Positions 12,016-47,254 of a stretch of 64,000 nucleotides of DNA are shown here, piece by piece (position 1 is the first letter of the stretch; every line of letters starts with the position of its first letter). This stretch comes from Nemertoderma westbladi (lineage: Eukaryota; Animalia; Xenacoelomorpha), in the NCBI GenBank assembly GCA_032718475.1, contig JAUCBJ010007765.1, forward strand, positions 29,754 to 93,753, in the 5' to 3' direction. The translations under genes and the position numbers were made by a program. The notes beneath the pieces are model-generated. The model was not told the origin of the DNA. It saw only the letters and a list, made by a program, of their open reading frames with translations, and did not search any database.

Positions 12016-12143
12016 GTAATTGGATAAGTATTTTGATTATTTAAATAATTTCATATATTTATTGGTCAACAATATTTGTATACTACAGTAACTGTATAAT
12101 ATATTTTGCAATTTTGCAACATAAAACGTGTACTATTTACCAG

Positions 12144-26331: not shown

Positions 26332-29300
26332 GGTATGAATTACGGGTTTATAAACTCATTTAAATATTATTATAAATATGAATATGATTTTTTTTATATT
26401 TTAAGGCCTAATTTTTTTGTAATTATGTAATATTCTTTATGTAATATTAATTGCCTACTCTCTAATATAATTTGAGTAATATGATTTCTATGCTGACAAA
26501 CACACTAACTAAAAAGTATTATGTTGTAATTCAATCATTAACGCTGAAATAAGCAGACATTAATCCAAAATTAATTATGTCAATTATTATACTGAAATCA
26601 ATCAAACGCGCAATGCAATGAAATATCATAATAATGCCAACGCAATGGTAAATGGATGTTAATTTAAATGTTACACTTGGCATTCAATGATTTATTACAA
26701 CATTTCGCGATTGATAACAGTAGACATTTCCTTCGTTATGTATTCGCGTATCGTTCATCGTTATAGACCACCCAGTAGGCCTACTATAGTTAAACCTTCT
26801 ACGGACTTCCTATCCTAGGAGTTTGGCAATTCGCACGTCCATTAAAGCGTAGCGCTACGTATTACTGAAAATCCTATCCAATTTGCCTCCAACTAATAAA
26901 CCTTGTCAAGAAAGTTGAATTAAAATAATACTGTAAATGCAGTATCATATGTATTGTGTTTGCGAATTTCTGAACCGAAAATAACAACTCCTTTAGTTCC
27001 TACATCAGGTCCACCACCGGATTGCTTTAATTTAATTTGGCAACCAAATCAAAATCCATTCGATATCTCGAGCAGAAATATTTATAGTGTTTTCCATAAC
27101 AATACAGTAATGTAATGGTAACCGCAACAATACTGTACAGTAGGCCTAGAGTCTACGTAATTTCTTTATCGTGATTTACTCACAGCGGCTTTGATTCATG
27201 TTAAGAGATAGTATGAAAGCCTACTGTATTTGATATTGATATGATAAAATCACCATATCGGGAAATGTAAAGTAAATTACTACAAATACTACACTGTACT
27301 GTATAAGATAAATATAACTCATGATTTGCGTGTACTTTAATATCGGACCATAAGAATCGCGTAAGGTTCTCCTCTTGCAATTTAAATTCCAGTTTATAAA
27401 ACTTATTCTGCAGTTACAGTTTAGTCAATGGACTTCTTCCGGTAGAATATTATTTATACCTATAAAATAAAAGGTAATAACTATATACTGTATAGGCCTA
27501 TACGTCATTGTTCAGAAAGTAGCACATTATAGTGTTACGGCACGAGTGATCATAGAACGAGGGCCGGTGCAGATTGTTGTTATCCTACTGTACACTATAT
27601 CAAGTGTTTACAGGGTGCAACAAGCGCATGGCTTTCTTACCCTTTACTTACACATCATACAATACTTTTCAGTATCAGTACCAGTATTGAAATCGTGGCT
27701 GAGACTTGCAGTTACGGCAGTACGGTTACTTACTGATAGTCGCCTATTCCTATTTATTGCAAGATTGCAAGATAAGTTCAAGTTGTCTGGTTGTTGCCTA
27801 TTTAGACAACAATGATTCTATGTCAGTATGTGTTGCCAGTATAGGCATCACTGGCATCAGACAGTCAGAGCCGAAAAGTGTGCCCCCTAGCGCGGGTTTC
27901 CTGCTTATGTAAGTTGTAAGTTTTAATATTACAGTATTACAGGATGTACTGTACAGAAAAATAAAGTAGAAAAACAAGCATAACCGGTACAGTTAACAGT
28001 TCTACGTACAGTACTTTCTCAATTCATTCGCCATTTTTGCTGATTGGCAGATTGGGAAAATTATTTCTTTTTCCTACAGTTCATACTACTAAACACAATT
28101 TAGATTTTCTAAATTTTTTTCCAACCGTTTAGAAACTTTTCACAATGAACATTTTGAGAAAAATCCAAAAAGTGTCCTGAAAAGAAGGGATGTGTAACAC
28201 TTCCCAAGCATGAACACTTCATAAATCATAAATATTCAACCTTTTGTTTCTCCCTTACTGCCTTAGGGCCCTATACAGTTATAAGCTACCGGTACTGAGC
28301 TAGGCAAAGGTCAGTACAGCAGTAGGTTCATACTGTCATACAGTCATACTGATACCAGGATACTGTTGGATTTGCGATTTGCGTAAGAACTAGGGACTAA
28401 AGTGTCCGTTTATTGTTCTTCTGTTCTTTCTATGCCCTACTGCAATACTGCCTTCCAGCCTTATCCAGTTATCTGGCAGCCTTGCTTTAACAATTTTTGC
28501 TAATGACAGAATGAAGCTTTTGTTTTCGTCTTGGCACTTTAAAATTGTATAATCATGTAGGCGCTGAAACTGAAATCGTTTACTAGCATAGGCCTAGTTT
28601 AAGTTATCGGTATACTGTCAGACTGTCTGACTGTCAGTTTGCGATTTTACCTGTTGCGCTGTTGGTTTGTGTCTTTTGTTGTCGGTGGTACCCAGGCTGC
28701 CAGGTCAGCAGGTACCGTATGTAAATTGGAGAGATACGCCTATTCCTACTATCGGAAGAGACGGTAACAATACCTGCAATATCCTACTGTAAAGTTTGTA
28801 AATCAAATCATAAATCCGACCTTCTCACCAAAACAGTAAACCCCAAGTAAGCGAATATATTGCAGTATCGATCTCTTTTAACCGGTGAGGCAGAAAACAG
28901 TCTACGAGCAGACAAACTTCGATAAAACAAAATCCCGCGCAGCGAATCCTAAAATCAGGCTGACTCACTGACGGACTAAGAGGCTCGTATACTTTGCCGC
29001 GGTGTGATTTATATGGTTGGGCAAAGGGACGCTAGCTAGGTATAGAGCAGATTTGGAGATGTCTAACTAGCGAGCAAAGTGCAGTAAGGACGAAAGTTAA
29101 TTTTATATATTTCGAGGTGTAAATAATTTCTAACGCGCGTGTGTTAATTCTGAACGGTCAAAGCAGTTTTGCTCCTTCACATATATAATTACTGGGTACG
29201 GTGTGTATTTTACGAATATTCTAATTTTATAACTTGTAGGTCCAATACTCACGAATGGTAAGGTTCCTTCCCCTCTTGCGTATTTCCAGGACTCAAATTC

Positions 29301-30216
29301 AGGCATAAGGTTAATACTACGCCCAGAATTCGGCAATTTTAGGTACCAGGTCCCTGATACTAAGAAGAGATGTGTTAGTTTACTACGGTAGGCGTACGGG
29401 TACTAATAGCTATCCTGGCTCCTATCTAGAATTTTAGTCACCCAGGTAGTCCGGGTAACTTCCTATTAGGGCGTTGGCGGGGACACGGTAGATGTTAGTA
29501 TATCCCTGATAGCCTCAATTTATTTGCGCCTAGTGTAAACTGCCCTACCGCCTGAACGGTACAATCCCAATTCAGGTGAAAACACAGCAACCCCCTAGCC
29601 TACAAGTTCTGATGTAACGGACACCGTTGTACGGCAAATAGTCGCACACACACCTGTACTTAGCAAGAGTTAAGCGTACAGTTTGCTGCACCCTAACCAA
29701 TGTGTATGCCTTGTACCGGTGTGCCTACGTCCTATCTGCGTACTAGTATCTGCTCTCTCTCCCTCTCCCCCCGTAGGAATATGAAGGTCTACTGCGGTTT
29801 TTCCTGAATCAAGACAGTACAGTCCCTATGATGTAATTTTGGGCTTACAGCGTGTCACTACGTCTACCTTTTGATCTTTGGTCTTACACTTAGGTAGCAA
29901 GGATCGAACGCTGTCTAACCTTTCAGGCGATGGGCGAATAACTTTAAATGGTATTGCGGGTTGTCTCTCGTCTACATTCCCGTGATGTTCCCGTTCATTG
30001 CTGCGGCCCGATCTCTAGCTGGCCATCCTGTCCCTGAGTTTGTTCACCGTAGTGAAACCATATTAAAACAGATAGAAAAGGGCTGAGATGTGACTAGTAT
30101 TTCTGACTTTATTACAAAACATATAATAACTATTATACAATAAACAATGTAATCTGAAATAAGACAGAAAGCGAATGATGGAAATTGCAGTGAATAACTA
30201 ATGAACAAATCGCACC

Positions 30217-30224
30217 TTTATATA
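30217..30224 (-). promoter_or_regulatory. TATA-like box in the LTR (also 46836-46843); AATAAA at 30108-30113 / 46717-46722
   Basis: element strand reads GTATATAAAGG, with AATAAA ~105-115 nt downstream in both LTRs. Confidence 0.5.
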
Positions 30225-30421
30225 CTAAATTTGTGCTGCAATCAATCGAGAAAATTCTCGATTGTTCTATGGGTTCTAACAAGGTTTTAAAGATAGCTTA
30301 TTGGTCCAGCTAATATATAACTTGCACGACATTGGTTACAATCAAATAACTACAGCCTTATTGGTACAGATAAATGCAATTAATTTGTAGCGGTTAATTT
30401 AAATGAGTTGAAATTCTGCAC

Positions 30422-30508
30422 AAAAAATGATTCGCACTTACTAGGATTCGAACTCGATACCTACTACACATATAATTTCCAACGCTCTACCAACTGAGCT
30501 ACTGAACC
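30422..30508 (-). ncRNA. tRNA-derived Pol III unit in the 3' LTR (not a functional tRNA)
   Basis: A box TAGCTCAGTTGG with intact D stem GCTC/GAGC, B box GAGTTCGAATCC, TTTTTT terminator; anticodon and T stems degenerate. Confidence 0.7.
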
Positions 30509-30742
30509 ACTTGACCGATAGATGCATAATAGATAGAACCAATACTAATGAGAACTCAAAGCAATCTTTACAAAGTTAATTCGAATAAAATAAAATTTTG
30601 AAAATCCACGGCATTTAGGGAATATAATTCTATACCGCTCCATGAAAACAGGATATTATCGTGCATAAATATACGGTTTTCACCAATAATCAATCAAACT
30701 ATAGAATACTTAGGGCGTACTTACATATTTACAATTAAGTTT

Positions 30743-31736: not shown

Positions 31737-34283
31737 TTATCGCTTAGTAGATCGAGCCCTGCCGCGTCCTCGAAAACTGCGCACAGGTGACTTTGCTCGC
31801 GATATGGGACTAATGGGGCGAGTCACTGGTTTACTTGGGACGTTAAGAGACGGTGCGACTATTTCCTCACAAATTCGTCTATTTGGCATCCCAAAACCTC
31901 GACCAATTCCTCGTGACCGATCAGTTGTCACTACAGTTGGTAGAACGTCTGGGAACGCGTGAGAAGCGGACGACGCAGACCCAAGAGTAGCTTGCGCCCC
32001 CTGTTGATCAGCTGGTGTATGTCCCGATCCTCCTACTGGTTCTCTTGGAAGTGATACCGTATCCCGAGTAACTCGAATAGTCGGCTCAACTCCCTTGCGT
32101 TCTTCTACATTAATAATTTTCTTCAATTGTTGGCCCACTTTCTGGACCCGTATGATCCTACCCTGCCCGTCCTCCCGAGGGTGACGTGCAGACGGCGCAA
32201 CCGGAGTGGCTGATATATTCGTCGCCTCTAGGACCTCTTCTTCCTCGAATACGCTCGCTCGTATACGTTTATGGTAAAACGCGGCTCGGTACGCCCATGC
32301 GACGGTTAACCAAGCTCCTTTATTCCGCTTTTCGGTTCGGAAACGATCAAATTCACCATACGTGATACGATTTACGACTTTCTGAAAATTCCACGTGTTT
32401 TTGTTATCCGGGTGAATCTGTAACAGATACTCGCGCACCACTCGAAATCCGCTGTCGTGGGGCAAAATATCGACAACCTCGATAAGTTCGTCATATTGAG
32501 GCATAGCGGAGATGTATCCTTCCGACATCATCGTTTGAGGATTTACCGCCCAAAATCCGAGATGCGCTCTCATCGGAAACCGTCTTCTCTGTGCCGATAC
32601 ATGTTCGTCGGCCAAATCTTCCCACTCATCAAATAACTTCCTCACGAGTTTAACAGATTCGTGTTCATAGGGTATGTCTCTTAGTTGGCATTCAGATGCT
32701 CGATGTCCCTTTATATTGCAGTAAGTACATTGAGCCATAAATCTCCAGCAAGTATAAAAGGTATGAGACCCTTGATCCCCACACCATCCACAGATTAGCT
32801 GAGTCGTAGTAATGTGCTTTCCACTGCACTTTGCCATATGATGTCCAGCGACGCCACATTTACTACACATCGTATTAGCAGGGTACCACACTCGTTCGTA
32901 TATAAGATCTCCAATCGGTCGAGCGCTTCCTCCCATACTATAATCGTAATCATCTGGGTCTATGGGTTGGTAGGTTTCTGAAGGTTGTATGCAAACTATA
33001 GCATCTGTTGCTTCAAGTTGTCGAATCTCCGTCTGAGATTTCTTCGGGAGGTTCCTTTCTATCTCAAGAAGTTCCTCTAAAGGATCGTCGGCGATCGTAG
33101 TAGTTACGTTGAAATCATCACCGAGGTGACCGATAGGCGCGCGCGTCTGCCGTGATTCATCCGTAATTTCCACAATACGTTCTCCTTCATAGGGTAACAA
33201 TGTAAACATAGATGGTCTTTCGATAAGAGATCCCGCACAGCGAAGATACACGTCTCGAAATATGCTAAATCCTGCTCGAGTAAAGGCATTACACTGAGCG
33301 TCGGAGTTGTAGAAGGGTTCAAGGAATCGTCTAAACACGTCGGTACGAATTCTCCCTTCCATGTAGAACGTATGATCTTCTCCGAGACAAAGTGGATGTC
33401 TTTTGAGAGTCCGAGACACAATGTCGGCGATTAGGCAAACATTCACTGACGACTCTATCGCTAAATAATATTGTAAGACCGCTCTTGGAGGTGACGTAAT
33501 AGCCCAATACACGCATCCTCTCCATTTAAGCTGTGATTCAAACTCACTCATATCTGGAGTATCACCTTCTCCATAAGTTTCAATATACTTGTTTCTTTTA
33601 CCTTCCTTATAATCCCAATTGAATAACAGGTAGGAAATGTATCCAGTTCCAGTCTTCTGAGTATTATACTCACGAAAATATCCCTGTTCTATAGACCACA
33701 GAATAAGAGGTCGAGTGTCGACGTATGGTGTCGGTAGTCGGTCATCGCTGTCCGTCATGCCGGCGAAGTCGCTAATTAGATCCTCCCTTACTCCTGATCC
33801 AACCTTTACAACAGTTTTATCTAAAATCATGTTTCTTACCATCTTCGGTAACATTCTAGCGTCAATATTACAAGCTTGGTCCATCTTCTTTACTATATCG
33901 GTGATAAGATGGTGTCGCTTTGTATTCGCTGGAGGTATCGGCATTCGTTTGTCGCTCCTCTGTCTACTGAAAACGTGCAGGACTCCGTCCGCCGCTCTAA
34001 TCTGTATAGTCTTAGAAGTCAAACTCTGCTGATGACTGCCGCCCTCGTTATCGTAAAACATATAACCGTTTTCCTGAAACGATCTAAACGTCCTAGTCCA
34101 TTCATCCAATAATTCTTCCGAAGGTTGCCAAATCTTCTCTATATCCTTATCCTCATCGAAACGAATAACCTTACCTCGCCAATCTGCGGCAATATCCGTA
34201 TCCGACTCGAAGGTTCCGATTCCAATCCATAAACGAATCGTCTTGGTTAGATATCCTTTCAGATTACTATGTCGGCACCAGCT
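31737..34283 (-). CDS. accessory ORF, C-terminal part: DEDDy 3'-5' exonuclease-like domain + 3 zinc knuckles + basic RS/RG-rich tail
   Basis: frame open from 34283; ExoI-like FYDNE, TIQI..GVLHVF, LPKMVRNMILDKTVVKVGSGVRED (ExoII-like), YVDT, W..SPPRAVLQYYLAIE (ExoIII-like, E in place of D); CSKCGVAGHHMAKC, CGWCGDQGSHTFYTC, CTYCNIKGHRASEC. Confidence 0.8.
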   Translation of the reverse strand, partial: SWCRHSNLKGYLTKTIRLWIGIGTFESDTDIAADWRGKVIRFDEDKDIEKIWQPSEELLDEWTRTFRSFQENGYMFYDNEGGSHQQSLTSKTIQIRAADGVLHVFSRQRSDKRMPIPPANTKRHHLITDIVKKMDQACNIDARMLPKMVRNMILDKTVVKVGSGVREDLISDFAGMTDSDDRLPTPYVDTRPLILWSIEQGYFREYNTQKTGTGYISYLLFNWDYKEGKRNKYIETYGEGDTPDMSEFESQLKWRGCVYWAITSPPRAVLQYYLAIESSVNVCLIADIVSRTLKRHPLCLGEDHTFYMEGRIRTDVFRRFLEPFYNSDAQCNAFTRAGFSIFRDVYLRCAGSLIERPSMFTLLPYEGERIVEITDESRQTRAPIGHLGDDFNVTTTIADDPLEELLEIERNLPKKSQTEIRQLEATDAIVCIQPSETYQPIDPDDYDYSMGGSARPIGDLIYERVWYPANTMCSKCGVAGHHMAKCSGKHITTTQLICGWCGDQGSHTFYTCWRFMAQCTYCNIKGHRASECQLRDIPYEHESVKLVRKLFDEWEDLADEHVSAQRRRFPMRAHLGFWAVNPQTMMSEGYISAMPQYDELIEVVDILPHDSGFRVVREYLLQIHPDNKNTWNFQKVVNRITYGEFDRFRTEKRNKGAWLTVAWAYRAAFYHKRIRASVFEEEEVLEATNISATPVAPSARHPREDGQGRIIRVQKVGQQLKKIINVEERKGVEPTIRVTRDTVSLPREPVGGSGHTPADQQGAQATLGSASSASHAFPDVLPTVVTTDRSRGIGRGFGMPNRRICEEIVAPSLNVPSKPVTRPISPISRAKSPVRSFRGRGRARSTKR

Positions 34284-35455
34284 CTATCCAGTTCCTTAAA
34301 ATCTTGGATATGAGGTGGAACGTTGTTCACGACCTTTTGAGTAATATGTCTACGCAAATCATATATCTTACTCATATCGCTGAAAACAACTGCAGGAAGA
34401 AACTCCAAGTTTGAAATGATTTCTGGATGATCCACGATGGGTATTTCGTACGTCGTATCCTGTCGGACTGGTATACTAATAGGGAAATTGAGTGTCGTAC
34501 TCAATGGTTTCGTAACTGAAGTACTATACGATTGCATTTCTCTTGGCCTCTCCGGGGATGCAATCTGTAGTCTCTGAATAACGTTTTGAGCGAAGTTTAT
34601 GCTCTCGAAAACTTCCGGTGTCATCTCCTTAGCTGAAGTTTGATCGTGTGACGTCCAATGGCAAGGTAGGCTCGCGAGTCTTCCACCCCATTCTTCCATC
34701 TCACCTTTCTCGAAAGCCTTGTAGGCTCTGTATAGGCTAAGAGCTTCTTTCTTTTCGCGGGTTGACTGATTCGCCTCGTCCAGCGTAAGTTCAAATACAT
34801 CGGGTTCAACAACCTTAGGTGGGTAAATGACAGTTTCTCCCGCCTTTGGTCCGGTCATAGCAAATGAGTGATATGGATTCGATAAAGGATACCCTCCTTC
34901 CTGGTAGCGTAGTTGTTGATGATTCGAACACCTCGCCAATATCGGTTCGGGATTTTCCTTATTCAAACGCATCGGAATCGCATTTCGTTGTTCGCGCATA
35001 CAAGAACCGCATTGATAATAAAGTTTATAAACTGAAAATGCTTCCTTGGTTTCTCTATCGTCCCCTCGAGTTCGTCTGTAAAGATGCATTCCATCGAATT
35101 CATCGCGTACCGCGGGCATAGGTTCATGCGCCTTTAGGTATTGCATGGTATGATACAAACGACTAATTTCAGTATCGGGGTCTTCGCTAATGTCTCCCGT
35201 ATCACACAAAGCATCGTACGGGTAAAGTTCATTGAAGGTTTGGCGCAAACTTTCGATTCTTTCGTTCAATGCGTTTTGCCTTCTCTTTAATACGTTCGAG
35301 TCATATTTAGTTCTCGCGAGTTTCGCTGTACTTTCCGATAATTCTTTTATACCAAATATAGTATAATCCTTGGCTCCAAATCTTTCGAATGGCGCTGCTG
35401 CCTCCTCTTGGATATCATATCCCCATCTCGGCTCTCCTTGTATCCCTTTCTCCAT
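34259..35455 (-). CDS. accessory ORF, N-terminal part (398 aa), joined to the next ORF by a -1 shift
   Basis: true ATG start; overlaps the downstream frame at 34259-34283; coiled-coil-like segment and a CGSC..CSNH motif; function unknown. Confidence 0.75.
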   Translation of the reverse strand: MEKGIQGEPRWGYDIQEEAAAPFERFGAKDYTIFGIKELSESTAKLARTKYDSNVLKRRQNALNERIESLRQTFNELYPYDALCDTGDISEDPDTEISRLYHTMQYLKAHEPMPAVRDEFDGMHLYRRTRGDDRETKEAFSVYKLYYQCGSCMREQRNAIPMRLNKENPEPILARCSNHQQLRYQEGGYPLSNPYHSFAMTGPKAGETVIYPPKVVEPDVFELTLDEANQSTREKKEALSLYRAYKAFEKGEMEEWGGRLASLPCHWTSHDQTSAKEMTPEVFESINFAQNVIQRLQIASPERPREMQSYSTSVTKPLSTTLNFPISIPVRQDTTYEIPIVDHPEIISNLEFLPAVVFSDMSKIYDLRRHITQKVVNNVPPHIQDFKELDRAGADIVI

Positions 35456-36115: not shown

Positions 36116-39100
36116 TTATTTACTAGTATTAGGTGGAGATTTGTAGTCTCCAGACTCGTTACGAGTCTCTTCAAGAAGTACGAGACGTTGAGTCGGTCTG
36201 TCTACTGTACGACCGTCAATTGTTCGTACCGTCACAGTTCTTGTCACTCCATCCATAGATGGATGTGTGGCTAAAATGACACCTGTTATCCAGAAGCGTC
36301 TTTTCAGATTCACTTCTGCCAACAGCACGTGGTCTCCCGGCTTTAATGCGCGGGTGTTATTGTACCAGTTTGTTCTGGCAGAAATAGAGGGCAAATAATG
36401 GTTTTGCCATATTTCCCAGAATTTGTTAGCCAGTAGTTGCGTGATTTTCCACGCTTTTCTACCGTAGCTATCGCTTTCCATTGGAATGGAAAGCGGCGTC
36501 AAAGTCGTCGGTGCCTGCATTAGCAGGTGTGCCGGTGTCAAAGCAAACTGAGATTGTTTGTCATCGGGTACTAATACTATTGGTCTAGTATTTAGTATTG
36601 CCTCGATTTCAACAAACAATGTTGTCAGTTGGTCGTCTGTTAATATGTGGTTTACTGGAATGACCTTTGCCATTGCTGTCTTTATAGATCTAATCAGTCT
36701 CTCCCAGACTCCGCCTCTCCAAGGACTATCTGGAGGATTGAACTTCCAAACAATCTTGTGAGGTTGCAGTTCGTTCGAGATTTGATCATGATCTAATTTC
36801 TTAAAGGCTCTAGCAATCTCATTCCGAGCACCAACGAAGTTTGTCCCTTGGTCTGAGTACAAGCATTTTACTAGTCCGCGTCTAGCGATAAATCGCCGCA
36901 GTGCTAGTATAAACGCGTTGGTGGAAAGATCCATCACACGTTCAATGTGAACTGCCCTACTGGACATACATGTGAAAATCAGTCCCCAGCGTTTTACTAG
37001 TATACGTCCACGTTTAGTATGTATGGGACCAAAGCAATCAATTCCAGTCTCTGTAAAAGGTGGTCTGAATGCTTGAAGTCGTGCTTGTGGTAGTTCACTC
37101 ATTTCTTGGGTACCTATTCTAGAATGTACCTTTTTACAAATAATACACGTACGTGTCACTGAACTTAATGCTTTACTGGGTCTAATTAATACAAATCTAG
37201 TACGTAAGTAGGAAAGACAGTGGTGTCTTCCAGCGTGTTTCAGATGTAGATGTGCGTCCAGTATCATTGCACGTTGTAGTTCGTGATGTTGCGGTATTAT
37301 TATTGGGTACCTAAAGTTCGTGTTAAAGTCAATGTTTTGAAGCCGAGATTTATGACAAATTAAGCCATTATAAATAATCGGACTCCAACTCAGTATCGGT
37401 GACGACTTGATTGGTTGACCTTGATTTATAGATGTGAATTCGCGCGCGAAATATCGCAGTTGGTAATGGCGAATTAATTTAATCTCACACCTGTCAATCT
37501 CAGCCAATGTAAGTCGACGTGTGAAGTCACGTTTGCCTTTAACGTATTGTACAAAACGTACAATCCACGCTAATTTTCGGCAAGCGTTTGACCAAGAATC
37601 TGTTAGGTTTACAATACGGTCGACATAAGTATTTGTGACGTCATCAGGTAAGTCAATGGAGAACTTGGAAGGTTTCGAATTACTAGAAGGGCCCACGGGT
37701 CCGCCGGTAAGTATTCCCTTGTTGACTGTTGATCCGTCCGGGTCTACAAGTAATTTGTCCTTCTTTGTCTTCTTACCTTGATTGTCGGTACTTTGTAAGT
37801 CGATCGTTAATGGTGGTTTGAACTCTATGGGGTCAGCAGGTTTCGGTAAACTTATTTTTCTGCCGACATTAATCCCAGGTCTCACCACAGGTTGTAAGTT
37901 CGGTATGTCTCTTGAGCGCAAAGTAACACCTGTATTTACATTAGCGTAGGTACTACCCACATCTGCAATACATGAGGTTTCACCATGCTTATGGTTGTCC
38001 AAGTGTGTCAAAATTGGTAGTTTGTCAATACAAGGCCGCTCCAATAGGGAAACTGCGGCTTTATTGTTAGTCAATACATTACTAGTGTCTAGTCGACTGT
38101 CTAGTAGTGTGTCTGGCGATACGTCTGGTAACGTATCTGGTTGTTTGTCAATAGAAGGCCGCTCCAATAGGGAAACTGCGGCTTTACTGTTTGTCAGTGC
38201 GTTACTAACGTCTGGTGGAACATTTTGTGATATGTCTGGCAAAATGTCTGGTTGACTGTCTAGTAACGTGTCTGGTTGACCGTCTGGCGATATGTCTGGT
38301 CGACCGTCTGGCGATATGTCTGGTGTAGAAAGGCTCGCAAGTCTTCCTCTCTTGACCTTTGAAGTTATATCCTTCCATTTCGCCTTCGGTTTTTTCTTGA
38401 GTTTCGCCGCTGTCGTCCTTTTCTTTGTCTTCCCCTTTTTTGGTTTCTTGATTTCGGCGTCCTTAGGAATGGTGTTGGATTTGTTGTCGTATAACGGAGG
38501 CCAATCTTGTGTCGATTTCTGCAAGAACTGGGGTCCGTGTTGCCAAAACTCTTTGTTCTCCGGTTTACAGAATTCCTCAGGCATCATTCCTCGCGACGCA
38601 ATATCAGCTGGGTTTTGTGGTCCTGGACAATGTCGCCAATCTTCTTTTATCGAACGGTCTAGAATTTCCGCGCGACGGTTAGCTACGAATGTCTTGAATT
38701 CGAGAGTGTCGTTGTTTATGTAAAATAAAACTAACGTCGCGTCAGTCCAATAAAATATCTGTAAACTCGACTGTAGTTCTGTCTGTATGAGGTTCACGAT
38801 GGTGGTTGACAGGGTCGCGGCTTGTAGCTCGGCTCGTGGTGTCGTCATGTACTTAGTAGGCATGGTCTTAGCCTTGGAAGTAATGAGCGAAACATCGAAC
38901 TCGTCTGATTCTACTTGTCTGCGCAAATACGCTGCCACACCAAACCCGTTGTCACTGGCGTCAGAAAAACAGTGTAGTTCCAAGTTGTCAGGAAATGTAC
39001 TCTGTAATGGAAAGTAAACCCTGGGTATGGAATAATCCTCTAACGAAGACAATTCCGCCTCCCAGGTCTTCCATAAGTCCACTTGATCTGATGAGATCGG

Positions 39101-42100
39101 CTCGTCCCACGTTAGTCCATCCTTCCAGATACTGCGCATATAAATGCGAGCTTGCAGTATTACTGGACTGATGAATCCTAACGGGTCGAACAATCGGCTC
39201 AACTTTGACAAGCATGATCTCTTGGTCAGTGTGTCTCCTTGACTGTCCAGTCTCACCTTCACTCGAAAGTTGTCTGTGTTTGGGTCCCAAAAGAGCCCCA
39301 ACACCTTAGTCGTCGGTAGTGGTTCGAACTCTAGGTCTATATCACCACCTCCACGCTCAGTAGTTCCGAATGAGTCAACTAATTCGGCACTGTTTGAGGC
39401 GAATTTGGTGAGGTTAAAACCTCCGCCCGCCAAGCAGTCCCGTAATTGATGTGCTACTGTTGTAGCACGTTCTACTGTGTCGCAACTCTGTAATCCGTCG
39501 TCAACGTAAAAGTCACGTTCTACAATTCTAACTATCTCTGGGTCATACAGATGTTTCTGATCTCTAGCGGCTTGCTTCAAGGCGTACATCGTACAATTCG
39601 GGCTGTCTCTGGCACCGAAAACGCGAACTTGCATTTGGTAAGTCGCTGGTGGTAGACTTAAGTCCCCTTCCGGATACCAGAGAAACCGCAAACTGTCTCT
39701 GTCTCGCTCTAACGCTTTCACTTGGTGAAACATCGCTTCTACGTCGCAAGTAAAGGCTACTTGACGCTGACGGAAGCGCATAATCACCCCCATAAGATAG
39801 TTATTCATGTTCGGTCCATCCATCAATTCACTATTGAGGGACATTCCCTCAAACAGAGCCGCACAGTCATTGACTACGCGTACTTTATCTGGTTTGTCGG
39901 GATGTCTCACATAGTGATGTGGCAAGTAGTACGTCTGGTCTGTCACTCGCTCCGGGTTAGTCATTCGGATAGCGTATCCCTTCGTCAAATACGTCTCCAT
40001 CTGAGTGTTATACTGCAGATGGGCTTTCTCGTCCTTTAATAGACGTTGTCGGATTGAGTGTAGACGTCTTAAAGCCAGTGGGTAGTTATTTATAAGTTTA
40101 GGACTTTGGCTACGCCATAACATACCCACCTCGTAATGTCCGTCCTCCGTCTGTCGGATAGTATCCTCCATGATCTTTAGAGATTGTTTCTCCTGTTCCG
40201 ACATACAAGGGTCGTAGCTACCAGGTTCAGCTGTATCTTGTTCTAACCACCTGATAGTCTTCTCCGTTAATTCTTTGTCCAAGGCGGCTTGTTCCAACTG
40301 ATGAGTTTTCAACGCGTCATCGTCGATATCGACGGGCACTGTTGAGGTTATTGGGGTAGGTAGACTCGCAAGCCTATCATCTGTCGTCGATGGAATCTCT
40401 AGCTGACTCATCTTCTCCCCAATTTCTAAACTCACCTTGTGGGTTAGCTGCTCCTTGTGACTTATCATACTAGTTACACGTCTGTCATGTTTTGTCAACT
40501 GTAGCGTAGTATGGTTCACGTCGTGTGAAAAGGAATGAATTGAGTTTGTAGTCAATAAACTACATGTACTCTGTACGTCGTCTTCCTCGTCACTTACGTC
40601 CAGTGTGCGCACAGGCGCTCGAGTATACCACCCTATCGGCGTTCTGCAGGCGTATGCGTTTCCTGCTACAACTGCCGATGGTCTGGTTTCCCACACCTGA
40701 TGTAGGTTGAATTGGTCCGTCCTGATCAGCATTGCTACCGATCTATAATTGACGGGACATTCGGGTACACCAAGGTGTCTGAAATACTTACGGTCCTCCA
40801 GAGATTGTTCCGGCACTGGACCTAGTAGGTTACTAAAGTCCTTCGTGGCCGCAAAGGTTAGATCTCTAAAGGGCAACAAAGACCTCTCCCTCTCGCTGTG
40901 TTGCGATTTTGGAAGAAGAGAGTCTAAGTCCAACTTAACTCGTGTCACTGGTATTGCACGCTGGCCGTGCATACTACTTACTGTATAACTGACGTGTTTA
41001 CCTTGTCTGAGATCCGTTACGACGTCAGCGATCTTTTCATCCACGTAACTGTGAGATGAGGCTGAATCTAGAATCGCGTAGATCCTCTTACTCCCCTTTG
41101 TGCCAGTAACTTTAATCGGGATTACACTAAATCCCTTCAGTTGGTCAGTGGTCAGGAGCGCGATTGACGGTTGTTCGTCTCCATTAGAATATTCGTCGTC
41201 GTCTGATTCTTCGTCCGACGATCCGGATTGTTCCGAAAAGCAATCCTCTATATGGGTCACGAAAGTCGGAGTCGTTTTCGATTCCCGTTTTCGGTAAGCC
41301 GCATCACATCTCGCTGCTGCTTCCGGGTGTTCCCTGGCGAAGCGTTTCGTCGGCGTGTGGCTGTCTGTGTGGAGCAGACCGTCGTGGTTGCGTCCACAGG
41401 ATGGACAAGTGTCGGTATTCGGGCAATCCTTGCGGACGTGTCCGTGTTGCGTACACCGCCAACAAGAGTCCAGTGGCCGTATCTGCAGCCGTCGTTCTTC
41501 TGAGTTCAACTCGCGAAATTGTCGACAACCCCGTAACTTGTGACCAATATACCGCTTACCTAAATGTTCGCAGTATTGGCAGCCGTTGAAGTCGGCGCTG
41601 AGTTGCTGTCTCGTCTGTTTTGTCCCAATGGGCGCAGATACTCTATTACCGTCTGAGAATTGTCGTGATTCCGTCGGTGTGGCGTAAGTGGCCGTCTTTG
41701 TGGATGTTGTCTGGGGTTTTTGTCGGTTTGAAGAGGATGGCAGTGTGATCCCTTCTGCCACGATGTGCTGGTCGGTATAGTTAGATCGAGTCTCTACTAC
41801 CGCCTCCCTGGATATTAAAAGGTACACATCTTCTAATTTTAGGAATCCTCCTCGCTCCTCTCGCTGATATTCGACCTTCCTCCACTCCCGACGAAGTCGA
41901 TGGTGGAGTCGTCCTATTATCTTTAATAGGACTGTAGGCGTATTCCCGTAATCAAGTTGTCCAATTGATCTTAAGGTAGTGATAGCGTTCTTAATCTCGT
42001 CGGCCAGTTTTAGTAAGTCGACAGGTTTAGTGATAGCCCCTCCCTTACAGAGTTCTTCTATTACTGACCTGGCCATACTCACTGTACCTCCGTATATCGA

Positions 42101-42712
42101 AGTCAAACGATCGTACGCTAGTTCGAAAGCGTCTGGTACACCGACGAAAGTCTCCGCCAAACGTTTAGGTTCTCCTGACAACGTTTGGAGCAAGTAATTG
42201 AACTTCTCTCGTGATGTAAAGGCGCACACGGCGATCTGGGATTCGATATAGTCTACGAAGGTATGCCAGTGTTTTGAGCTACCGGAGAACTTCGGTGGTT
42301 GTTGTACCGGCAATCCCTGTCTGGCTGCGAATTTCGCTATCTCCTCGGCAACGTTCAGAGTTTCGCGTCCTTGGTTGGTAACCTGGTTGATGTTCTCCCT
42401 TCTAGGCGCTTTTCCCTGATACGATGTGGGGTTTGAAGGTACCGGTCTTTGTGGTCCCTTCGGGTGTCTATTGTGTTCGAATTCGGAATTTCTCGAACTG
42501 TCGGTGTAACCTTCCTCCAGACGTTCCTCGATCTGAGCCAACTTATTGACAACTGGTCGCAGAATGTCGGCGAACTGTTGTGTACTAATTGCGTCCGTTG
42601 GTTGTAACGCCTTCTGTGTTGGTGTATTCTGTGGAGGATTGTCTGCAAAGGAGTTGTCTGAACTGGCCTTGTAGGTCGAAACGTCATTGGGTAAGCGTAA
42701 TGTGTAACGGGT
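36116..42712 (-). CDS. pol: BEL/Pao Gag C-terminal part and Pol polyprotein
   Basis: frame open from 42712; PPKFSG..EKFNYLLQTLSGEP (DUF1759), CQYC/CWRC..H..C/CPSC..H..LLH, ILDSAS protease, DVEAMFHQV and FYVDD RT, HCFSDAS RNase H, H..H..CIIC, IDCFGP, SDQGTNF and GVWERL integrase. Confidence 0.95.
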   Translation of the reverse strand, partial: TRYTLRLPNDVSTYKASSDNSFADNPPQNTPTQKALQPTDAISTQQFADILRPVVNKLAQIEERLEEGYTDSSRNSEFEHNRHPKGPQRPVPSNPTSYQGKAPRRENINQVTNQGRETLNVAEEIAKFAARQGLPVQQPPKFSGSSKHWHTFVDYIESQIAVCAFTSREKFNYLLQTLSGEPKRLAETFVGVPDAFELAYDRLTSIYGGTVSMARSVIEELCKGGAITKPVDLLKLADEIKNAITTLRSIGQLDYGNTPTVLLKIIGRLHHRLRREWRKVEYQREERGGFLKLEDVYLLISREAVVETRSNYTDQHIVAEGITLPSSSNRQKPQTTSTKTATYATPTESRQFSDGNRVSAPIGTKQTRQQLSADFNGCQYCEHLGKRYIGHKLRGCRQFRELNSEERRLQIRPLDSCWRCTQHGHVRKDCPNTDTCPSCGRNHDGLLHTDSHTPTKRFAREHPEAAARCDAAYRKRESKTTPTFVTHIEDCFSEQSGSSDEESDDDEYSNGDEQPSIALLTTDQLKGFSVIPIKVTGTKGSKRIYAILDSASSHSYVDEKIADVVTDLRQGKHVSYTVSSMHGQRAIPVTRVKLDLDSLLPKSQHSERERSLLPFRDLTFAATKDFSNLLGPVPEQSLEDRKYFRHLGVPECPVNYRSVAMLIRTDQFNLHQVWETRPSAVVAGNAYACRTPIGWYTRAPVRTLDVSDEEDDVQSTCSLLTTNSIHSFSHDVNHTTLQLTKHDRRVTSMISHKEQLTHKVSLEIGEKMSQLEIPSTTDDRLASLPTPITSTVPVDIDDDALKTHQLEQAALDKELTEKTIRWLEQDTAEPGSYDPCMSEQEKQSLKIMEDTIRQTEDGHYEVGMLWRSQSPKLINNYPLALRRLHSIRQRLLKDEKAHLQYNTQMETYLTKGYAIRMTNPERVTDQTYYLPHHYVRHPDKPDKVRVVNDCAALFEGMSLNSELMDGPNMNNYLMGVIMRFRQRQVAFTCDVEAMFHQVKALERDRDSLRFLWYPEGDLSLPPATYQMQVRVFGARDSPNCTMYALKQAARDQKHLYDPEIVRIVERDFYVDDGLQSCDTVERATTVAHQLRDCLAGGGFNLTKFASNSAELVDSFGTTERGGGDIDLEFEPLPTTKVLGLFWDPNTDNFRVKVRLDSQGDTLTKRSCLSKLSRLFDPLGFISPVILQARIYMRSIWKDGLTWDEPISSDQVDLWKTWEAELSSLEDYSIPRVYFPLQSTFPDNLELHCFSDASDNGFGVAAYLRRQVESDEFDVSLITSKAKTMPTKYMTTPRAELQAATLSTTIVNLIQTELQSSLQIFYWTDATLVLFYINNDTLEFKTFVANRRAEILDRSIKEDWRHCPGPQNPADIASRGMMPEEFCKPENKEFWQHGPQFLQKSTQDWPPLYDNKSNTIPKDAEIKKPKKGKTKKRTTAAKLKKKPKAKWKDITSKVKRGRLASLSTPDISPDGRPDISPDGQPDTLLDSQPDILPDISQNVPPDVSNALTNSKAAVSLLERPSIDKQPDTLPDVSPDTLLDSRLDTSNVLTNNKAAVSLLERPCIDKLPILTHLDNHKHGETSCIADVGSTYANVNTGVTLRSRDIPNLQPVVRPGINVGRKISLPKPADPIEFKPPLTIDLQSTDNQGKKTKKDKLLVDPDGSTVNKGILTGGPVGPSSNSKPSKFSIDLPDDVTNTYVDRIVNLTDSWSNACRKLAWIVRFVQYVKGKRDFTRRLTLAEIDRCEIKLIRHYQLRYFAREFTSINQGQPIKSSPILSWSPIIYNGLICHKSRLQNIDFNTNFRYPIIIPQHHELQRAMILDAHLHLKHAGRHHCLSYLRTRFVLIRPSKALSSVTRTCIICKKVHSRIGTQEMSELPQARLQAFRPPFTETGIDCFGPIHTKRGRILVKRWGLIFTCMSSRAVHIERVMDLSTNAFILALRRFIARRGLVKCLYSDQGTNFVGARNEIARAFKKLDHDQISNELQPHKIVWKFNPPDSPWRGGVWERLIRSIKTAMAKVIPVNHILTDDQLTTLFVEIEAILNTRPIVLVPDDKQSQFALTPAHLLMQAPTTLTPLSIPMESDSYGRKAWKITQLLANKFWEIWQNHYLPSISARTNWYNNTRALKPGDHVLLAEVNLKRRFWITGVILATHPSMDGVTRTVTVRTIDGRTVDRPTQRLVLLEETRNESGDYKSPPNTSK

Positions 42713-44511
42713 TTAGGCGTCAAAGGTGGACTCACCTGTTTTGTCGTCAGTAGCGCAGGTCCGGTCAATAAACTACTACGATCTGTAATCGGTGGGTTAC
42801 TTACCTTGACTCTCGGAATAGGCGACGACGTTGCTCTTGGCGGTATAAACTCGTTCGGAATAACAAACCTGTGTTCCGTCGCACCATGGATAGGAGAAAT
42901 ATCACTACTACCCGCAATCGAAACAGGTTCCTTAGTCGTAACCGGTGCAAACATATGAGTTACCTGTGGGAATCGTTGACACACGTCTTTTACTAATTGT
43001 CGTTCCCGTCCGGGTGCTCCTACGCTTCCTTCCTTCTTCCGTTCCTGAATTTGGCGATGTCTTACCTCTAACTGGTCCAAATCATGTCCGTCGCGAGATC
43101 TCATCGATCTATCGCGGGCTAGAAGATCCAGATTTTCCTTAGTTTCGGCTAATTCTCTCGCCCTCTTCTCAAGTTCGAAACGAAGTTTAACCTCCTTTTC
43201 TCGTTGTTCCGTTTGTTGTTGTTGCGCCTCGAACTCTGCTTGTCGTATCGCTTGTTGGGCTTTTATTTGCCGTGTCTTCATCTCGACTCTGGCTTCCGAA
43301 ACTACTCTTTGTCGCTCTAACTCTGCCGCAGCCGTTTGTCGCTCTAACTCTGCCGCAGCCGTTTGTCGCTCTAACTCGGCCGCTGCCGTTTGTCGCTCTA
43401 ACTCGGCCGCTGCCGTTTGTCGCTCTAACTCGGCCGCTGCAGCTGCCGTTTGTCGCTCTAACTCGGCTGTTGCCGTTCGTTGCGCTAACTCGGCCGTTGC
43501 CGCTTGTTGGGCAATGTCCAACTCTAACCTTTCCATTTCGGCCGCTTCGAGTTCGGCTTGTTCCTGCAGATGAGAGATTCTCGCTACATTTGCAACACGT
43601 ATTTTCTCTTCCTCTACTGCTGTTTGTATCATTAGAAGTTGAGCTTGTTCTTCTATCTCGTGTTGCTGTCTGTAGAACTGCTGCTGTTGTCGAGCAACTT
43701 CTGACGTGACTATACTTCCTTCGCAGATTTCGCTACGAATACTTACCAATGATTGATTTAGTATTCCCGGTGCCGATTCGATTTGTGTGAATGAAGTTTC
43801 CCTCGTGTATTCCGGCTCGGTTTCCAAATCGCCGACGTCTTCGCCGCACATGCGTAAGTGGTCCGTCAGATGTTTCAATTGTCCATCCAGTCGGTACAAT
43901 TCCTGTTCTTCCTCGGGTTGTAATAATTCGTCCGAAACTGACTCACCTAACAACTGGTCCGCTTGTTCCTGTTGTATCTGTCTAATCGTCGACTTAAACT
44001 GAATCAGTTTCTCTCTAGTGATCATTAGTTTCTCGAGGATTCTAAGTTGAGTATCCATGTCCTGTCTCTGTCTAGCTAGATCTTGTAGGCCAACTAGATT
44101 ATCTACGGACTTATATACTTTACTCTGTACTCTAACCTGGAGGGTGTAGAACTCGAATCGAGACATCGGAGCGGTCAACCCGTCTAATATGCGTTGGCCT
44201 TCTCCAATACTCCTGGTTATATGCGCCATGTAACCTCCGACGCTTCTAACCACACTTTCCTGGCTTCCTGCTGAACTTACCATGTCCGTTTCCCTGTATC
44301 TAGGTTGCGGAACAGTTAGAAAGTCCTCGGTCCTGCCGTCGCCTCGTACTACGGCATCCGGTACTCCCGTTGGATGTACTGGTGACGCACACGGTGTAGG
44401 TTCGGTAGGCTTGCGAGTCTTCCTCTGTTGTTCTTCCGCTGCTGACTTATCTCCGTCACACGAGTCATAGTCGGTTTGTGTATTCTTCGTATAGTCTTGT
44501 TTGTCACTCAT
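42355..44511 (-). CDS. gag: BEL/Pao Gag N-terminal region (coiled coil)
   Basis: ATG start, 718 codons, E/Q/R-rich coiled coil; overlaps the pol frame by 358 nt in a -1 relationship. Confidence 0.85.
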   Translation of the reverse strand: MSDKQDYTKNTQTDYDSCDGDKSAAEEQQRKTRKPTEPTPCASPVHPTGVPDAVVRGDGRTEDFLTVPQPRYRETDMVSSAGSQESVVRSVGGYMAHITRSIGEGQRILDGLTAPMSRFEFYTLQVRVQSKVYKSVDNLVGLQDLARQRQDMDTQLRILEKLMITREKLIQFKSTIRQIQQEQADQLLGESVSDELLQPEEEQELYRLDGQLKHLTDHLRMCGEDVGDLETEPEYTRETSFTQIESAPGILNQSLVSIRSEICEGSIVTSEVARQQQQFYRQQHEIEEQAQLLMIQTAVEEEKIRVANVARISHLQEQAELEAAEMERLELDIAQQAATAELAQRTATAELERQTAAAAAELERQTAAAELERQTAAAELERQTAAAELERQTAAAELERQRVVSEARVEMKTRQIKAQQAIRQAEFEAQQQQTEQREKEVKLRFELEKRARELAETKENLDLLARDRSMRSRDGHDLDQLEVRHRQIQERKKEGSVGAPGRERQLVKDVCQRFPQVTHMFAPVTTKEPVSIAGSSDISPIHGATEHRFVIPNEFIPPRATSSPIPRVKVSNPPITDRSSLLTGPALLTTKQVSPPLTPKPVTHYAYPMTFRPTRPVQTTPLQTILHRIHQHRRRYNQRTQLVHNSSPTFCDQLSISWLRSRNVWRKVTPTVREIPNSNTIDTRRDHKDRYLQTPHRIREKRLEGRTSTRLPTKDAKL
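43308..43505 (-). repeat. 27-bp coding tandem repeat (AAAELERQT)n in gag
   Basis: gccgtttgtcgctctaactc(t/g)gccgc(a/t) repeated ~6-7 times. Confidence 0.9.
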
Positions 44512-44593
44512 TTCGGTAGTTGTAAGTCAAGTGAAGTGAGTGTCAAAGTATCGAGTTTACCGTATTTGTATAAGACGGTACTAATTACAGTCA

Positions 44594-44718
44594 TATAAAA
44601 TTAGCCTACCGGCCGATTTTATAGCAGATGGATAAAATTAGCCTAAACGGCCAATTTTACAACAAATTAATGTCACGGAGTAAGTATATAATAAAATTAG
44701 CCTAGCGGCCAATTTTAT
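44594..44718 (-). other. three repeated hairpins in the 5' leader
   Basis: ATAAAAT(T/C)GGCC-loop-GGCTAATTTTAT x3, with G-U pairs only on the element strand. Confidence 0.7.
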
Positions 44719-45321
44719 AACAAATAAATCGGATAACGATATGCGTTATCAAAAGGTAAATTAAATACAATAATACGGACTAATTCAGCAATGAACAAAG
44801 AAATCATACGGAATGCATAAATACTTGAGACAGTGGAACCCACAATAATTTTAACTAATACGGTAATGCCTAACTTATTTATGCAACTTTTCGAACTCAC
44901 CCACTCCAATAATTCTCCAGAAAAACAGATTCCCAGATACAAACCGGACGTGAACCTTTCCGTTTTTAACGTTGCGGACGAAACGCGATTTTCCCAACCA
45001 AAGTTGTTGAGTTATCTATCTCCCAAACTTGATAAACACGGTCTTGCTCCCGTTACAGTCTAGAAAATGAGTTCTGAATCCTGAAAAACAAAAGAGTTAG
45101 GTTTTACTTTACGAAAAATTTTGTACCGGTACAATATGGTATTTAAACCCTTTTAAACACCGGTATTCAATTCCAAAAATATTTTACACGCGGTTCAAAT
45201 CAAATTTTATTTCAAAAAATTAGCACTTAGCTAATCAAAATACAAAATTTTACCTCAAAATACAAAATTTTCAAATAACTTTAGTCCTACCGAACCGTAG
45301 TTCAGTAAAACATATTCCTAC

Positions 45322-47254
45322 TAAATTGGAGAGATACGCCTATTCCTACTATCGGAAAAGACGGTAACAATACCTGCAATATCCTACTGTAAAGTTTGTA
45401 AATCAAATCATAAATCCGACCTTCTCACCAAAACAGTAAACCCCAAGTAAGCGAATATATTGCAGTATCGATCTCTTTTAACCGGTGAGGCAGAAAACAG
45501 TCTACGAGCAGACAAACTTCGATAAAACAAAATCCCGCGCAGCGAATCCTAAAATCAGGCTGACTCACTGACGGACTAAGAGGCTCGTATACTTTGCCGC
45601 GGTGTGATTTATATGGTTGGGCAAAGGGACGCTAGCTAGGTACAGAGGCAGATATTTGGAGATGTCTAACTAGCGAGCAAAGTGCAGTAAGGACGAAAGT
45701 TAATTTTATATATTTTGAGGTGTAAATAATTTCTAACGCGCGTGTGTTAATTCTGAACGGTCAAAGCAGTTTTGCTCCTTCACATATATAATTACTGGGT
45801 ACGGTGTGCATTTTACGAATATTCTAATTTTATAACTTGTAGGTCCAATACTCACGAATGGTAAGGTTCCTTCCCCTCTTGCGTATTTCCAGGACTCAAA
45901 TTCAGGCATAAGGTTAATACTACGCCCAGAATTCGGCAATTTTAGGTACCAGGTCCCTGATACTAAGAAGAGATGTGTTAGTTTACTACTATAGGCGTAC
46001 GGGTACTAATAGCTATCCTGGCTCCTATCTAGAATTTTAGTCACCCAGGTAGTCCAGGTAACTTCCTATTAGGGCGTTGGCGGGGACACGGTAGATGTTA
46101 GTATATCCCTGATAGCCTCAATTTATTTGCGCCTAGCGTAAACTGCCCTACCGCCTGAACGGTACAATCCTAATTCAGGTGAAAACACAGCAACCCCCCT
46201 AGCCTACAAGTTCTGATGTAACGGACACCGTTGTACGGCAAATAGTCGCACACACACCTGTACTTAGCAAGAGTTAAGCGTACAGTTTGCTGCACCCTAA
46301 CCAATGTGTATGCCTTGTACCGGTGTGCCTACGTCCTATCTGCGTACTAGTATCTGCTCTCTCTCCCTCTCCCCCCCCGTAGGAATATGAAAGGTCTACT
46401 GCGGTTTTCCCTGAATCAAGACAGTACAGTCCCTATGATGTAATTTTGGGCTTACAGCGTGTCACTACGTCTACCTTTGATCTTTTGGTCTTACACTTAG
46501 GTAGCAAGGATCGAACGCTGTCTAACCTTTCAGGCGATGGGCGAATAACTTTAAGATGGTATTGCGGGTTGTCTCTCGTCTACATTCCCGTGACGTTCCC
46601 GTTCATTGCTGCGGCCCGATCTCTAGCCGGCCATCCTGTCCCTGAGTTTGTTCACCGTAGTGAAACCATAGTAAAACAGATAGAAAAGGGCTGAGATGTG
46701 ACTAGTATTTCTGACCTTTATTACAAAAGATATAATAACTATTATACAATAAACAATGTAATCTGAAATAAGACAGAAAGTGAATGATGGATTGAGAGTA
46801 GTGATTGATTAGATAACTAATGAACGAATCGCACCTTTATATACTAAATTTGTGCTGCAATCAATCGAGAAAATTCTCGATTGTTCTATGGGTTCTAACA
46901 AGGTTTTAAAGATAGCTTATTGGTCCAGCTAATATATAACTTGCACGACATTGGTTACAATCAAATAACTACAGCCTTATTGGTACAGACAAATGCAATT
47001 AATTTGTAGCGGTTAATTTAAATGAGTTGAAATTCTGCACAAAAAATAATTCGCACTTACTAGGATTCGAACTCGATACCTACTACACATATAATTTCCA
47101 ACGCTCTACCAACTGAGCTACTGAACCACTTGACCGATAGATACACAATAGATAGAACCAATACTAATGAGAACTCAAAGCAATCTTTACAAAGTTAATT
47201 CGAATAAAATAAAATTTTGAAAATCCACGGCATTTAGGGAATATAATTCTATAC
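45322..47254 (-). repeat. 5' LTR (1933 bp)
   Basis: direct repeat of 28722-30635. Confidence 0.95.
47041..47127 (-). ncRNA. tRNA-derived Pol III unit in the 5' LTR
   Basis: same A box, B box and T6 as 30422-30508. Confidence 0.7.

What the first reader, a model, noticed from the sequence alone, without database searches (positions are those of the whole stretch)
28722..47254. Hypothesis: self-contained priming/RNA-processing system (LTR-encoded tRNA-like RNA + no canonical PBS + element-encoded RNase D-like enzyme)
Three oddities co-occur in one element: a Pol III tRNA-like unit in each LTR, no TGG-type PBS after the 5' LTR, and a 3'-trimming nuclease with RNA-binding knuckles. Also seen: TACTGAACTAC at 45307-45297 (element strand, 14 nt after the LTR) can form 11 bp (one G-U) with GTGGTTCAGTA at the 5' end of the tRNA-like unit. 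Established: fission yeast Tf1 self-primes through an 11-nt pairing, and plant Cassandra TRIMs carry Pol III 5S units in their LTRs. The functional link here is inference only, and an 11-bp match could be chance.
Basis: inference. Interest (0 to 1): 0.78.

Follow-up and report, generated by a model that had tools for sequence, protein, structure and literature searches.

The report
Self-priming BEL/Pao retrotransposon

Summary
The proposed link is not supported. A better pairing was missed: the first 11 nt after the 5' LTR (45321-45311) are the perfect complement of LTR bases 46389-46379 (7 of 3000 shuffles). That places a primer's 3' end exactly at the LTR border, as in yeast Tf1. In other copies the only substitution listed across 91 nt around the site is at 45313, the predicted partner of a variant seen earlier at 46387; linkage is not shown. 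LTR termini are TA...TA and this copy has no target-site duplication. Best reading: Tf1-like self-priming (0.68); the RNA start and the cut are inferred. The nuclease may help trim the primer (untested). No report of BEL/Pao self-priming was found in the papers searched, though unchecked scan notes propose it in other genomes.

The parts
45322..47253 (-). 5' LTR, 1932 nt, termini TA...TA
   Evidence: borders from flanks of other copies
28722..30634 (-). 3' LTR, 1913 nt; no target-site duplication with the 5' flank
45311..45321 (-). Predicted primer-binding site: the first 11 nt after the 5' LTR, no TGG
   Evidence: perfect complement of 46389-46379; variant at 45313
46379..46389 (-). Predicted self-primer, in an initiator-like YYANWYY context starting at 46390
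   Evidence: (variant at 46387)
29773..29783 (-). Identical copy of the self-primer 11-mer in the 3' LTR
45284..45311 (-).
47041..47129 (-). tRNA-like Pol III-type unit (A box 47120-47109, B box 47074-47063, T6 47046-47041); not a cloverleaf tRNA
30422..30510 (-). Copy of the tRNA-like unit in the 3' LTR
46717..46843 (-). TATA-like box (46843) and upstream AATAAA (46722): a competing promoter and poly(A) reading of the LTR
46122..46127 (-). Only AATAAA downstream of the self-primer; would end R at about 46100
42355..44526 (-). First ORF (ATG 44511), coiled-coil-like N-terminal gag region with a 27-nt repeat; overlaps the next ORF in another frame
   Evidence: no Pfam hit
36116..42712 (-). BEL/Pao gag-pol ORF: DUF1759, zinc knuckles, protease, RT (YVDD), RNase H/Peptidase_A17, integrase, DUF5641
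34259..35476 (-). ORF3, first piece (ATG 35455), no homologue found
31737..34283 (-). ORF3, second piece (other frame, break near 34270): likely DEDD/WRN-like 3'-5' exonuclease domain (about 34060-33450, last acidic motif YxxxE) and two CCHC knuckles (32867, 32729)
30635..30641 (-). Position of the plus-strand primer: only a 7-nt purine-rich patch, no 10-nt polypurine tract

Best explanation
This BEL/Pao retrotransposon has no tRNA primer site and likely primes reverse transcription with its own RNA, as yeast Tf1 does. Shown: the 11 bases after the 5' LTR are the exact complement of LTR bases 46389-46379, the pairing ends at the LTR border, and both strands carry a variant at one matching base pair among other copies. 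Inferred: the genomic RNA starts at or near 46389; a 1057-nt folded R-U5 region brings its first 11 bases onto the primer site; a cut after base 11 (RNase H in Tf1) frees a 3' end at the LTR border; poly(A) addition near 46100 supplies the R overlap for strand transfer. The tRNA-like unit then lies in U3 and is likely an accessory Pol III/TFIIIC element (short RNA, insulator or captured SINE head), not the primer. The ORF3 nuclease is likely an accessory RNA-processing or anti-silencing protein.
For: Perfect 11 bp at offset 0, the longest perfect match from any of 30 offsets; 7 of 3000 LTR shuffles give it at offset 0 and 21 of 3000 at offsets 0-5. It meets the published criterion of >=10 bp starting 0-5 bp after the LTR (57 of 3000 shuffles meet it). 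Same length as the Tf1 primer. One search showed a substitution at 46387; pairing predicts a partner change at 45313, and one search lists exactly one substitution at >=1% in 45275-45365, at 45313, in 4 of 4 runs (22-31% of depth; 3 samples), together turning U-A into C-G. The 87 nt from 46389 bind the LTR-end/PBS region better than 400 of 400 shuffles (-19.9 kcal/mol). The helix forms at mean probability 0.92-0.98 for RNA starts 46410-46388. Flanks of other copies begin at 45322.
Against: No RNA start is mapped. A TATA-like box at 46843 and an AATAAA at 46722 suggest another start and end; with starts at 46810 or 47129 the helix has probability 0, is absent from the minimum-energy folds at 46600 and 46450 and is 0.52 at 46420. 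The two variants are 1074 nt apart and not phased. Their frequencies differ: 46387 is 1.6-1.7% in X1/X2 and 94% in X4, against 24-31% for 45313 in those runs; the 45313 change alone also fits a G.U wobble. The four other markers on the X4 contig that carries the 46387 change are commoner in X1/X2 (three at 10-42%, one at 92-99%), so 46387 may be undercounted, but this is not shown. The neighbouring R/U5 helix has only 0.18 probability in one register. No host tRNA set could be tested. No related element from another species with LTRs was recovered.
Confidence: 0.68

Rival explanations
1. Same 11-mer is the primer, but its 3' end is made by the element's own DEDD nuclease, which trims an LTR-derived RNA (the 3' R copy, or a roughly cut leader) back until the duplex with the primer site stops it.
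For: An identical 11-mer is in the 3' LTR. ORF3 resembles WRN-like 3'-5' exonucleases (30 of 30 named Atlas hits carry PF01612, score 0.93; DnaQ model E=0.026) and has RNA-binding-type knuckles. It would not need an RNA start at 46389.
Against: Complementarity stops at an initiator-like site, which fits a transcript start. Tf1 needs only RNase H. The last acidic motif is YxxxE and activity is untested. In rotifer elements DEDDy ORF3s come and go without a known role.
Confidence: 0.12
2. A host tRNA fragment or another host small RNA primes at the site; the LTR match is a structural helix that shields the site, or chance.
For: No host tRNA set was available. Half-tRNA primers exist in Copia lineages. 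A >=10-bp match arises in 57 of 3000 shuffles.
Against: A mature tRNA needs TGG, absent in the first 50 nt. A 22-31% variant inside an 11-nt site, at the partner of an LTR variant, is not expected if a fixed host RNA binds there, although G.U wobble could allow it.
Confidence: 0.12
3. One reading: the Pol III tRNA-like RNA, cut or trimmed to its first 11 nt, primes at 45307-45297.
For: 11 bp with one G.U; 26 of 20000 shuffles when restricted to the unit's 5' end; duplex energy of the bare 11-mer equals that of the self-primer (-13.9 against -13.7); no substitution listed in 45307-45297.
Against: 14 nt away from the LTR while other copies end at 45322; target predicted inside a stable hairpin; whole RNA binds no better than shuffles (94 of 400); needs removal of about 75 nt from a structured RNA.
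Confidence: 0.05

Closest known systems
Tf1/Tf2 (Schizosaccharomyces pombe), Tj1 and the Tf1/sushi group; also predicted for plant Tcn1 and TAR lineages
   Same: No tRNA site; 11-nt LTR-internal sequence complementary to the bases right after the 5' LTR.
   Different: Those are Ty3/gypsy or Ty1/copia elements; this is BEL/Pao. The loop here is 1057 nt, termini are TA...TA, and start site and cleavage are not shown.
Belpaoviridae (BEL/Pao), ICTV profile PMC8742986
   Same: Gag-pol domain set and order; RT region 39-44% identical to most of the 120 listed BEL/Pao proteins of molluscs, echinoderms, cnidarians and others.
   Different: Profile gives LTRs of 0.2-1.2 kb, genomes of 4.2-10 kb, an 18-nt tRNA-Arg/Gly site and a ~10-nt polypurine tract. 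Here 1.9 kb, 18.5 kb, no tRNA site, no such tract.
Juno/Vesta LTR elements of bdelloid rotifers with RNase D-like DEDDy ORF3 (PMC5408684)
   Same: A DEDD-type 3'-5' exonuclease ORF in the env slot, with an altered acidic motif; role unknown.
   Different: Those have TG...CA LTRs of 159-551 bp and a DEED motif; here the motif reads D-E-D-E by eye, with CCHC knuckles and a long N-terminal piece. Their sequences were not compared.
Cassandra TRIMs (5S unit in LTR) and foamy-virus LTR Pol III cassettes (both recalled, not checked by a call)
   Same: A Pol III-type unit inside each LTR.
   Different: Here it is a tRNA-type A/B-box unit in an autonomous element; transcription is untested.
C. elegans Cer7 (recalled as encoding its own tRNA-like primer; source not held)
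   Same: If the recollection is right, a BEL-type element with a self-encoded tRNA-like sequence.
   Different: Unverified; here the unit has no acceptor stem or CCA and does not match the site at the LTR border.

Membership tests
BEL/Pao (Belpaoviridae) | Gag and Pol with PR-RT-RNase H-IN order and BEL-specific domains | tested here: met
   Peptidase_A17 E=2e-42, DUF5641, DUF1759, integrase zinc domain; motifs in order
BEL/Pao (Belpaoviridae) | Flanking LTRs | tested here: met
   1932 and 1913 nt, 21 substitutions; longer than the 0.2-1.2 kb of the profile
BEL/Pao (Belpaoviridae) | 18-nt site complementary to the 3' end of a host tRNA | tested here: not met
   No TGG within 50 nt; so it is BEL/Pao by its proteins but departs from the profile's priming description
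BEL/Pao (Belpaoviridae) | Polypurine tract of about 10 nt before the 3' LTR | tested here: not met
   Only a 7-nt purine-rich patch
Canonical LTR retrotransposon ends | TG...CA termini and 4-6 bp target-site duplication | tested here: not met
   TA...TA; no 4-8 bp duplication with borders moved by up to 3; duplication in other copies not testable
Tf1-type self-priming (mechanism) | >=10 bp LTR complement starting 0-5 bp after the 5' LTR | tested here: met
   11 bp at offset 0
Tf1-type self-priming (mechanism) | Pairing kept through compensating change | tested here: inconclusive
   Variants at both partners 46387 and 45313; unphased, frequencies differ
Tf1-type self-priming (mechanism) | Primer is the 5' end of the transcript | not testable with these tools
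   Only contigs, no raw RNA reads; initiator-like context at 46390
Tf1-type self-priming (mechanism) | Cleavage after base 11 by RNase H | not testable with these tools
   Needs biochemistry
Tf1/sushi group (membership) | Ty3/gypsy chromovirus-type Pol | tested here: not met
   Pol is BEL/Pao; works like Tf1, is not a member
tRNA gene | Cloverleaf with acceptor, anticodon and T arms | tested here: not met
Pol III type-2 unit | A box, B box, T run | tested here: met
   (48 nt between box starts); transcription untested
DEDDy/RNase D-WRN exonuclease | Similarity to the family and ExoI-III acidic motifs | tested here: inconclusive
   Atlas 0.92-0.93 to PF01612 clusters, DnaQ E=0.026; no Pfam, PDB or phmmer hit; model unusable, pLDDT 32; motifs assigned by eye, last one YxxxE
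DEDDy/RNase D-WRN exonuclease | 3'-5' exonuclease activity | not testable with these tools
   Needs an assay

The most novel reading that the evidence does not exclude
A BEL/Pao lineage that has become fully independent of host tRNA: it folds a 1-kb leader to bring its own first 11 bases onto the primer site, uses its captured DEDD nuclease to trim that primer flush to the duplex, integrates with TA...TA ends, and uses an LTR-borne tRNA-like Pol III RNA to open the hairpin beside the primer site as a switch.
Probability: 0.1. Interest if true: 0.85.

Novelty: new variant of a known kind. Interest (0 to 1): 0.6.

Why it matters
The ICTV profile describes BEL/Pao replication as primed by a host tRNA, and self-priming is described for Ty3/gypsy and some Ty1/copia lineages. 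A self-priming BEL/Pao family would put the mechanism in the third large LTR superfamily and suggest repeated escape from tRNA dependence, and from silencing that targets the tRNA site (inference). The TA...TA ends and missing tRNA site also mean that standard LTR finders would likely miss such families. It offers a testable role for the unexplained DEDD ORF3 of animal retroelements.

Tried and rejected
Own genome not held, so no host tRNA comparison and no full-length sister copies. No RNA holder listed. Related loci: one unrelated 1276-nt hit at 29% in metagenomes, none in viral contigs. ORF3 homologues: none. Single-sequence structure model unusable, so no fold search was run. An X3 loose end at 45311 first looked like a copy ending right after the primer site; rejected, because the LTR holds a 10-of-11 near-copy of the site at 45349 that explains it as a misalignment. 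A TGG at about 46669 inside the LTR as a hidden tRNA site: rejected as the element border, because both repeats run on identically for 1.3 kb and flanks start at 45322; not tested against host tRNAs. A tyrosine-recombinase or split-repeat element: rejected, Pol carries a DDE-type integrase. Splicing-built primer, as in scan notes for other genomes: not needed, the 11-mer is contiguous in the DNA. Literature searches for BEL/Pao self-priming, Cer7 and tRNA-like units in LTRs found no report in the listings; most subscription papers and all supplements were unseen. Scan look-ups by place, by sequence and by one word set were empty.
Full report
What is there. The stretch is an 18,532-nt LTR retrotransposon on the minus strand. 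Its long ORF (42712-36116) hits Peptidase_A17, DUF1759, DUF5641 and an integrase zinc domain, and its RT region is 39-44% identical to most of the 120 listed BEL/Pao proteins from marine invertebrates, so it is BEL/Pao by its proteins with no close relative on record. The LTRs span 47253-45322 and 30634-28722 and differ by 21 substitutions in 1910 aligned bases and 12 indel events. Flanks of other copies start at 47253 (2 contigs in X4) and at 45322 (5 listed records in X3 and X4), so the termini are TA...TA, not TG...CA. This copy has no target-site duplication. Summed contig depth is of the order of 100,000 over the LTR against 9-27 over the unique flank in X1 and X2, so the family is abundant; the tool warns that this is no copy number.

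There is no TGG in the first 50 nt after the 5' LTR. Each LTR has an A-box-like and a B-box-like motif and a T6 run, but ARAGORN and Rfam see no tRNA and only the D-arm pairs well. ORF3 is in two pieces with a break near 34270. Its second piece has two CCHC knuckles and a domain that the ESM Atlas places beside WRN-like 3'-5' exonucleases (score 0.92-0.93; 30 of 30 named hits carry PF01612, on 34-50% of members in the rows shown), with a weak DnaQ hit over the first motif (E=0.026). Pfam, PDB and two large protein searches gave nothing, and the fold model was unusable. The nuclease is therefore likely, not proven; by eye the motifs read DxE, D and YxxxE.

It exists (45307-45297 with 47129-47119, one G.U). 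Against the whole LTR such a match occurs in 345 of 3000 shuffles; restricted to the unit's 5' end, in 26 of 20000, so it is not trivially dismissed. But it starts 14 nt from the LTR, whereas copies end at 45322; it is the left arm of a predicted 12-bp hairpin with a UACG loop (probability 0.93-1.0 in six folds); and the whole tRNA-like RNA binds the region no better than its shuffles (94 of 400).

The pairing that was missed. The first 11 nt after the LTR (45321-45311) are the exact complement of 46389-46379, with the 3' base of that 11-mer opposite the first base after the LTR. Shuffled LTRs give this in 7 of 3000 cases at offset 0 and 21 of 3000 at offsets 0-5. Tf1 uses its first 11 bases, released by RNase H (PMC7175516, passages; PMC4600332 and PMC5341516, passages). 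The 11-mer begins in an initiator-like context (one of 19 such motifs in the LTR, so weak alone), an AATAAA follows at 46127, and an RNA starting between 46410 and 46388 closes the helix at 0.92-0.98. The 87 nt from 46389 bind the LTR-end region better than all 400 shuffles.

Variation among copies. One search listed one substitution inside the 11-mer, at 46387 (40 rows shown, 101 hidden). Its partner is 45313. I chose the stretch for to test that; it lists a single substitution at 1% or more in 91 nt, at 45313, in all 4 runs (3 samples), in the direction that restores Watson-Crick pairing with the 46387 variant. Against: the sites cannot be phased on short contigs; 46387 is at 1.6-1.7% in X1 and X2 but 94% in X4, while 45313 is at 26, 24, 22 and 31%; and the 45313 change alone is tolerated as G.U. 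The X4 contig with the 46387 change carries four other substitutions, three of which are at 10-42% in X1 and X2 and one at 92-99%; this fits a subfamily of about a quarter of copies with 46387 undercounted next to variable runs, but is not shown.

Main weakness. The RNA start is unknown. A TATA-like box at 46843 and an AATAAA at 46722 give an ordinary reading of the outer LTR, and folds from 46810 or 47129 do not form the helix. If all RNA ended near 46700 there would be no R overlap for a primer at 46389 (inference). Run X4 shows a depth step near there, but contigs cannot show RNA ends. No host tRNA set was available and no relative from another species was recovered.

Comparison. The ICTV profile (PMC8742986, whole text) gives host-tRNA priming, LTRs up to 1.2 kb and genomes up to 10 kb. 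DEDDy ORF3s are known from rotifer LTR elements, with role unknown (PMC5408684, passages and Discussion). Non-TG...CA ends are known for Troyka and Zam (PMC12440569, abstract and passages; PMC3601003, passages). The main text of PMC3118150 has no mention of primer, PBS or tRNA. bioRxiv 10.1101/825315 (passages) bears only on ADAR and LTR elements. Searches listed no report of BEL/Pao self-priming; most subscription papers and all supplements were unseen, and Cer7, Cassandra and foamy-virus parallels are recalled only. After my reading was fixed, the scan's own notes showed four unchecked proposals of BEL/Pao self-priming in other genomes among 8 shown; they are not evidence, but the idea is not unique to this window. 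Two involve splicing, which is not needed here.

Verdict. New variant of a known kind; interest 0.6.

Noticed in passing
window 45493-46196: One 701-nt contig of run X4 differs at 90 places; the 16 listed T>C sites are all A on the element strand and 12 of the 16 show no such change in X1 (11 of 16 in X2). This looks like ADAR-type A-to-G hyper-editing of the predicted folded U5 RNA, or one hypermutated copy. Whether X4 is RNA is unknown.
   Followed up: partly
window 46800-47250: In X4 summed contig depth is 16,000-40,000 over this outer part of the LTR against about 900-1,400 over 45800-46440, a step not seen in X1 or X2. Could be a separate short family or RNA ending near the upstream AATAAA; contigs cannot tell.
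   Followed up: no
window 46791-46812: The two LTRs differ by a replaced patch about 30 nt after the TATA-like box, a region that is highly variable among copies. With the missing target-site duplication this suggests a recombinant of two copies.
   Followed up: partly
window 45081-45105: Branch-point-like CTAAC, pyrimidine tract and AG in the 5' leader: a likely splice acceptor downstream of the primer site.
   Followed up: no
window 44590-44720: Three similar hairpins in tandem before the first ATG, possibly a packaging or dimerisation signal.
   Followed up: partly
window 45339-45349: A 10-of-11 near-copy of the primer site inside U5, 28 nt upstream of the real one.
   Followed up: partly
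window 30743-31126: 190-nt tandem duplication in the long AT-rich 3' untranslated region.
   Followed up: no
window 37950-38400: Pol carries a low-complexity insertion of 12-nt repeats between RNase H and integrase.
   Followed up: no
window 24655-26355: 566-aa open frame, probably a host exon with spectrin-like helical repeats (judged by eye; only sub-threshold Pfam hits).
   Followed up: partly
window 4318-7600: 57-59-nt satellite array of more than 40 copies with an inverted copy at 3990-4076; other tandem arrays at 12098-12720 (15 nt), 18631-19634 (147 nt) and 21142-21821 (68 nt).
   Followed up: no
window 51404-57395: Direct repeats 3.1 and 5.5 kb apart, possibly another mobile element or a local duplication.
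   Followed up: no
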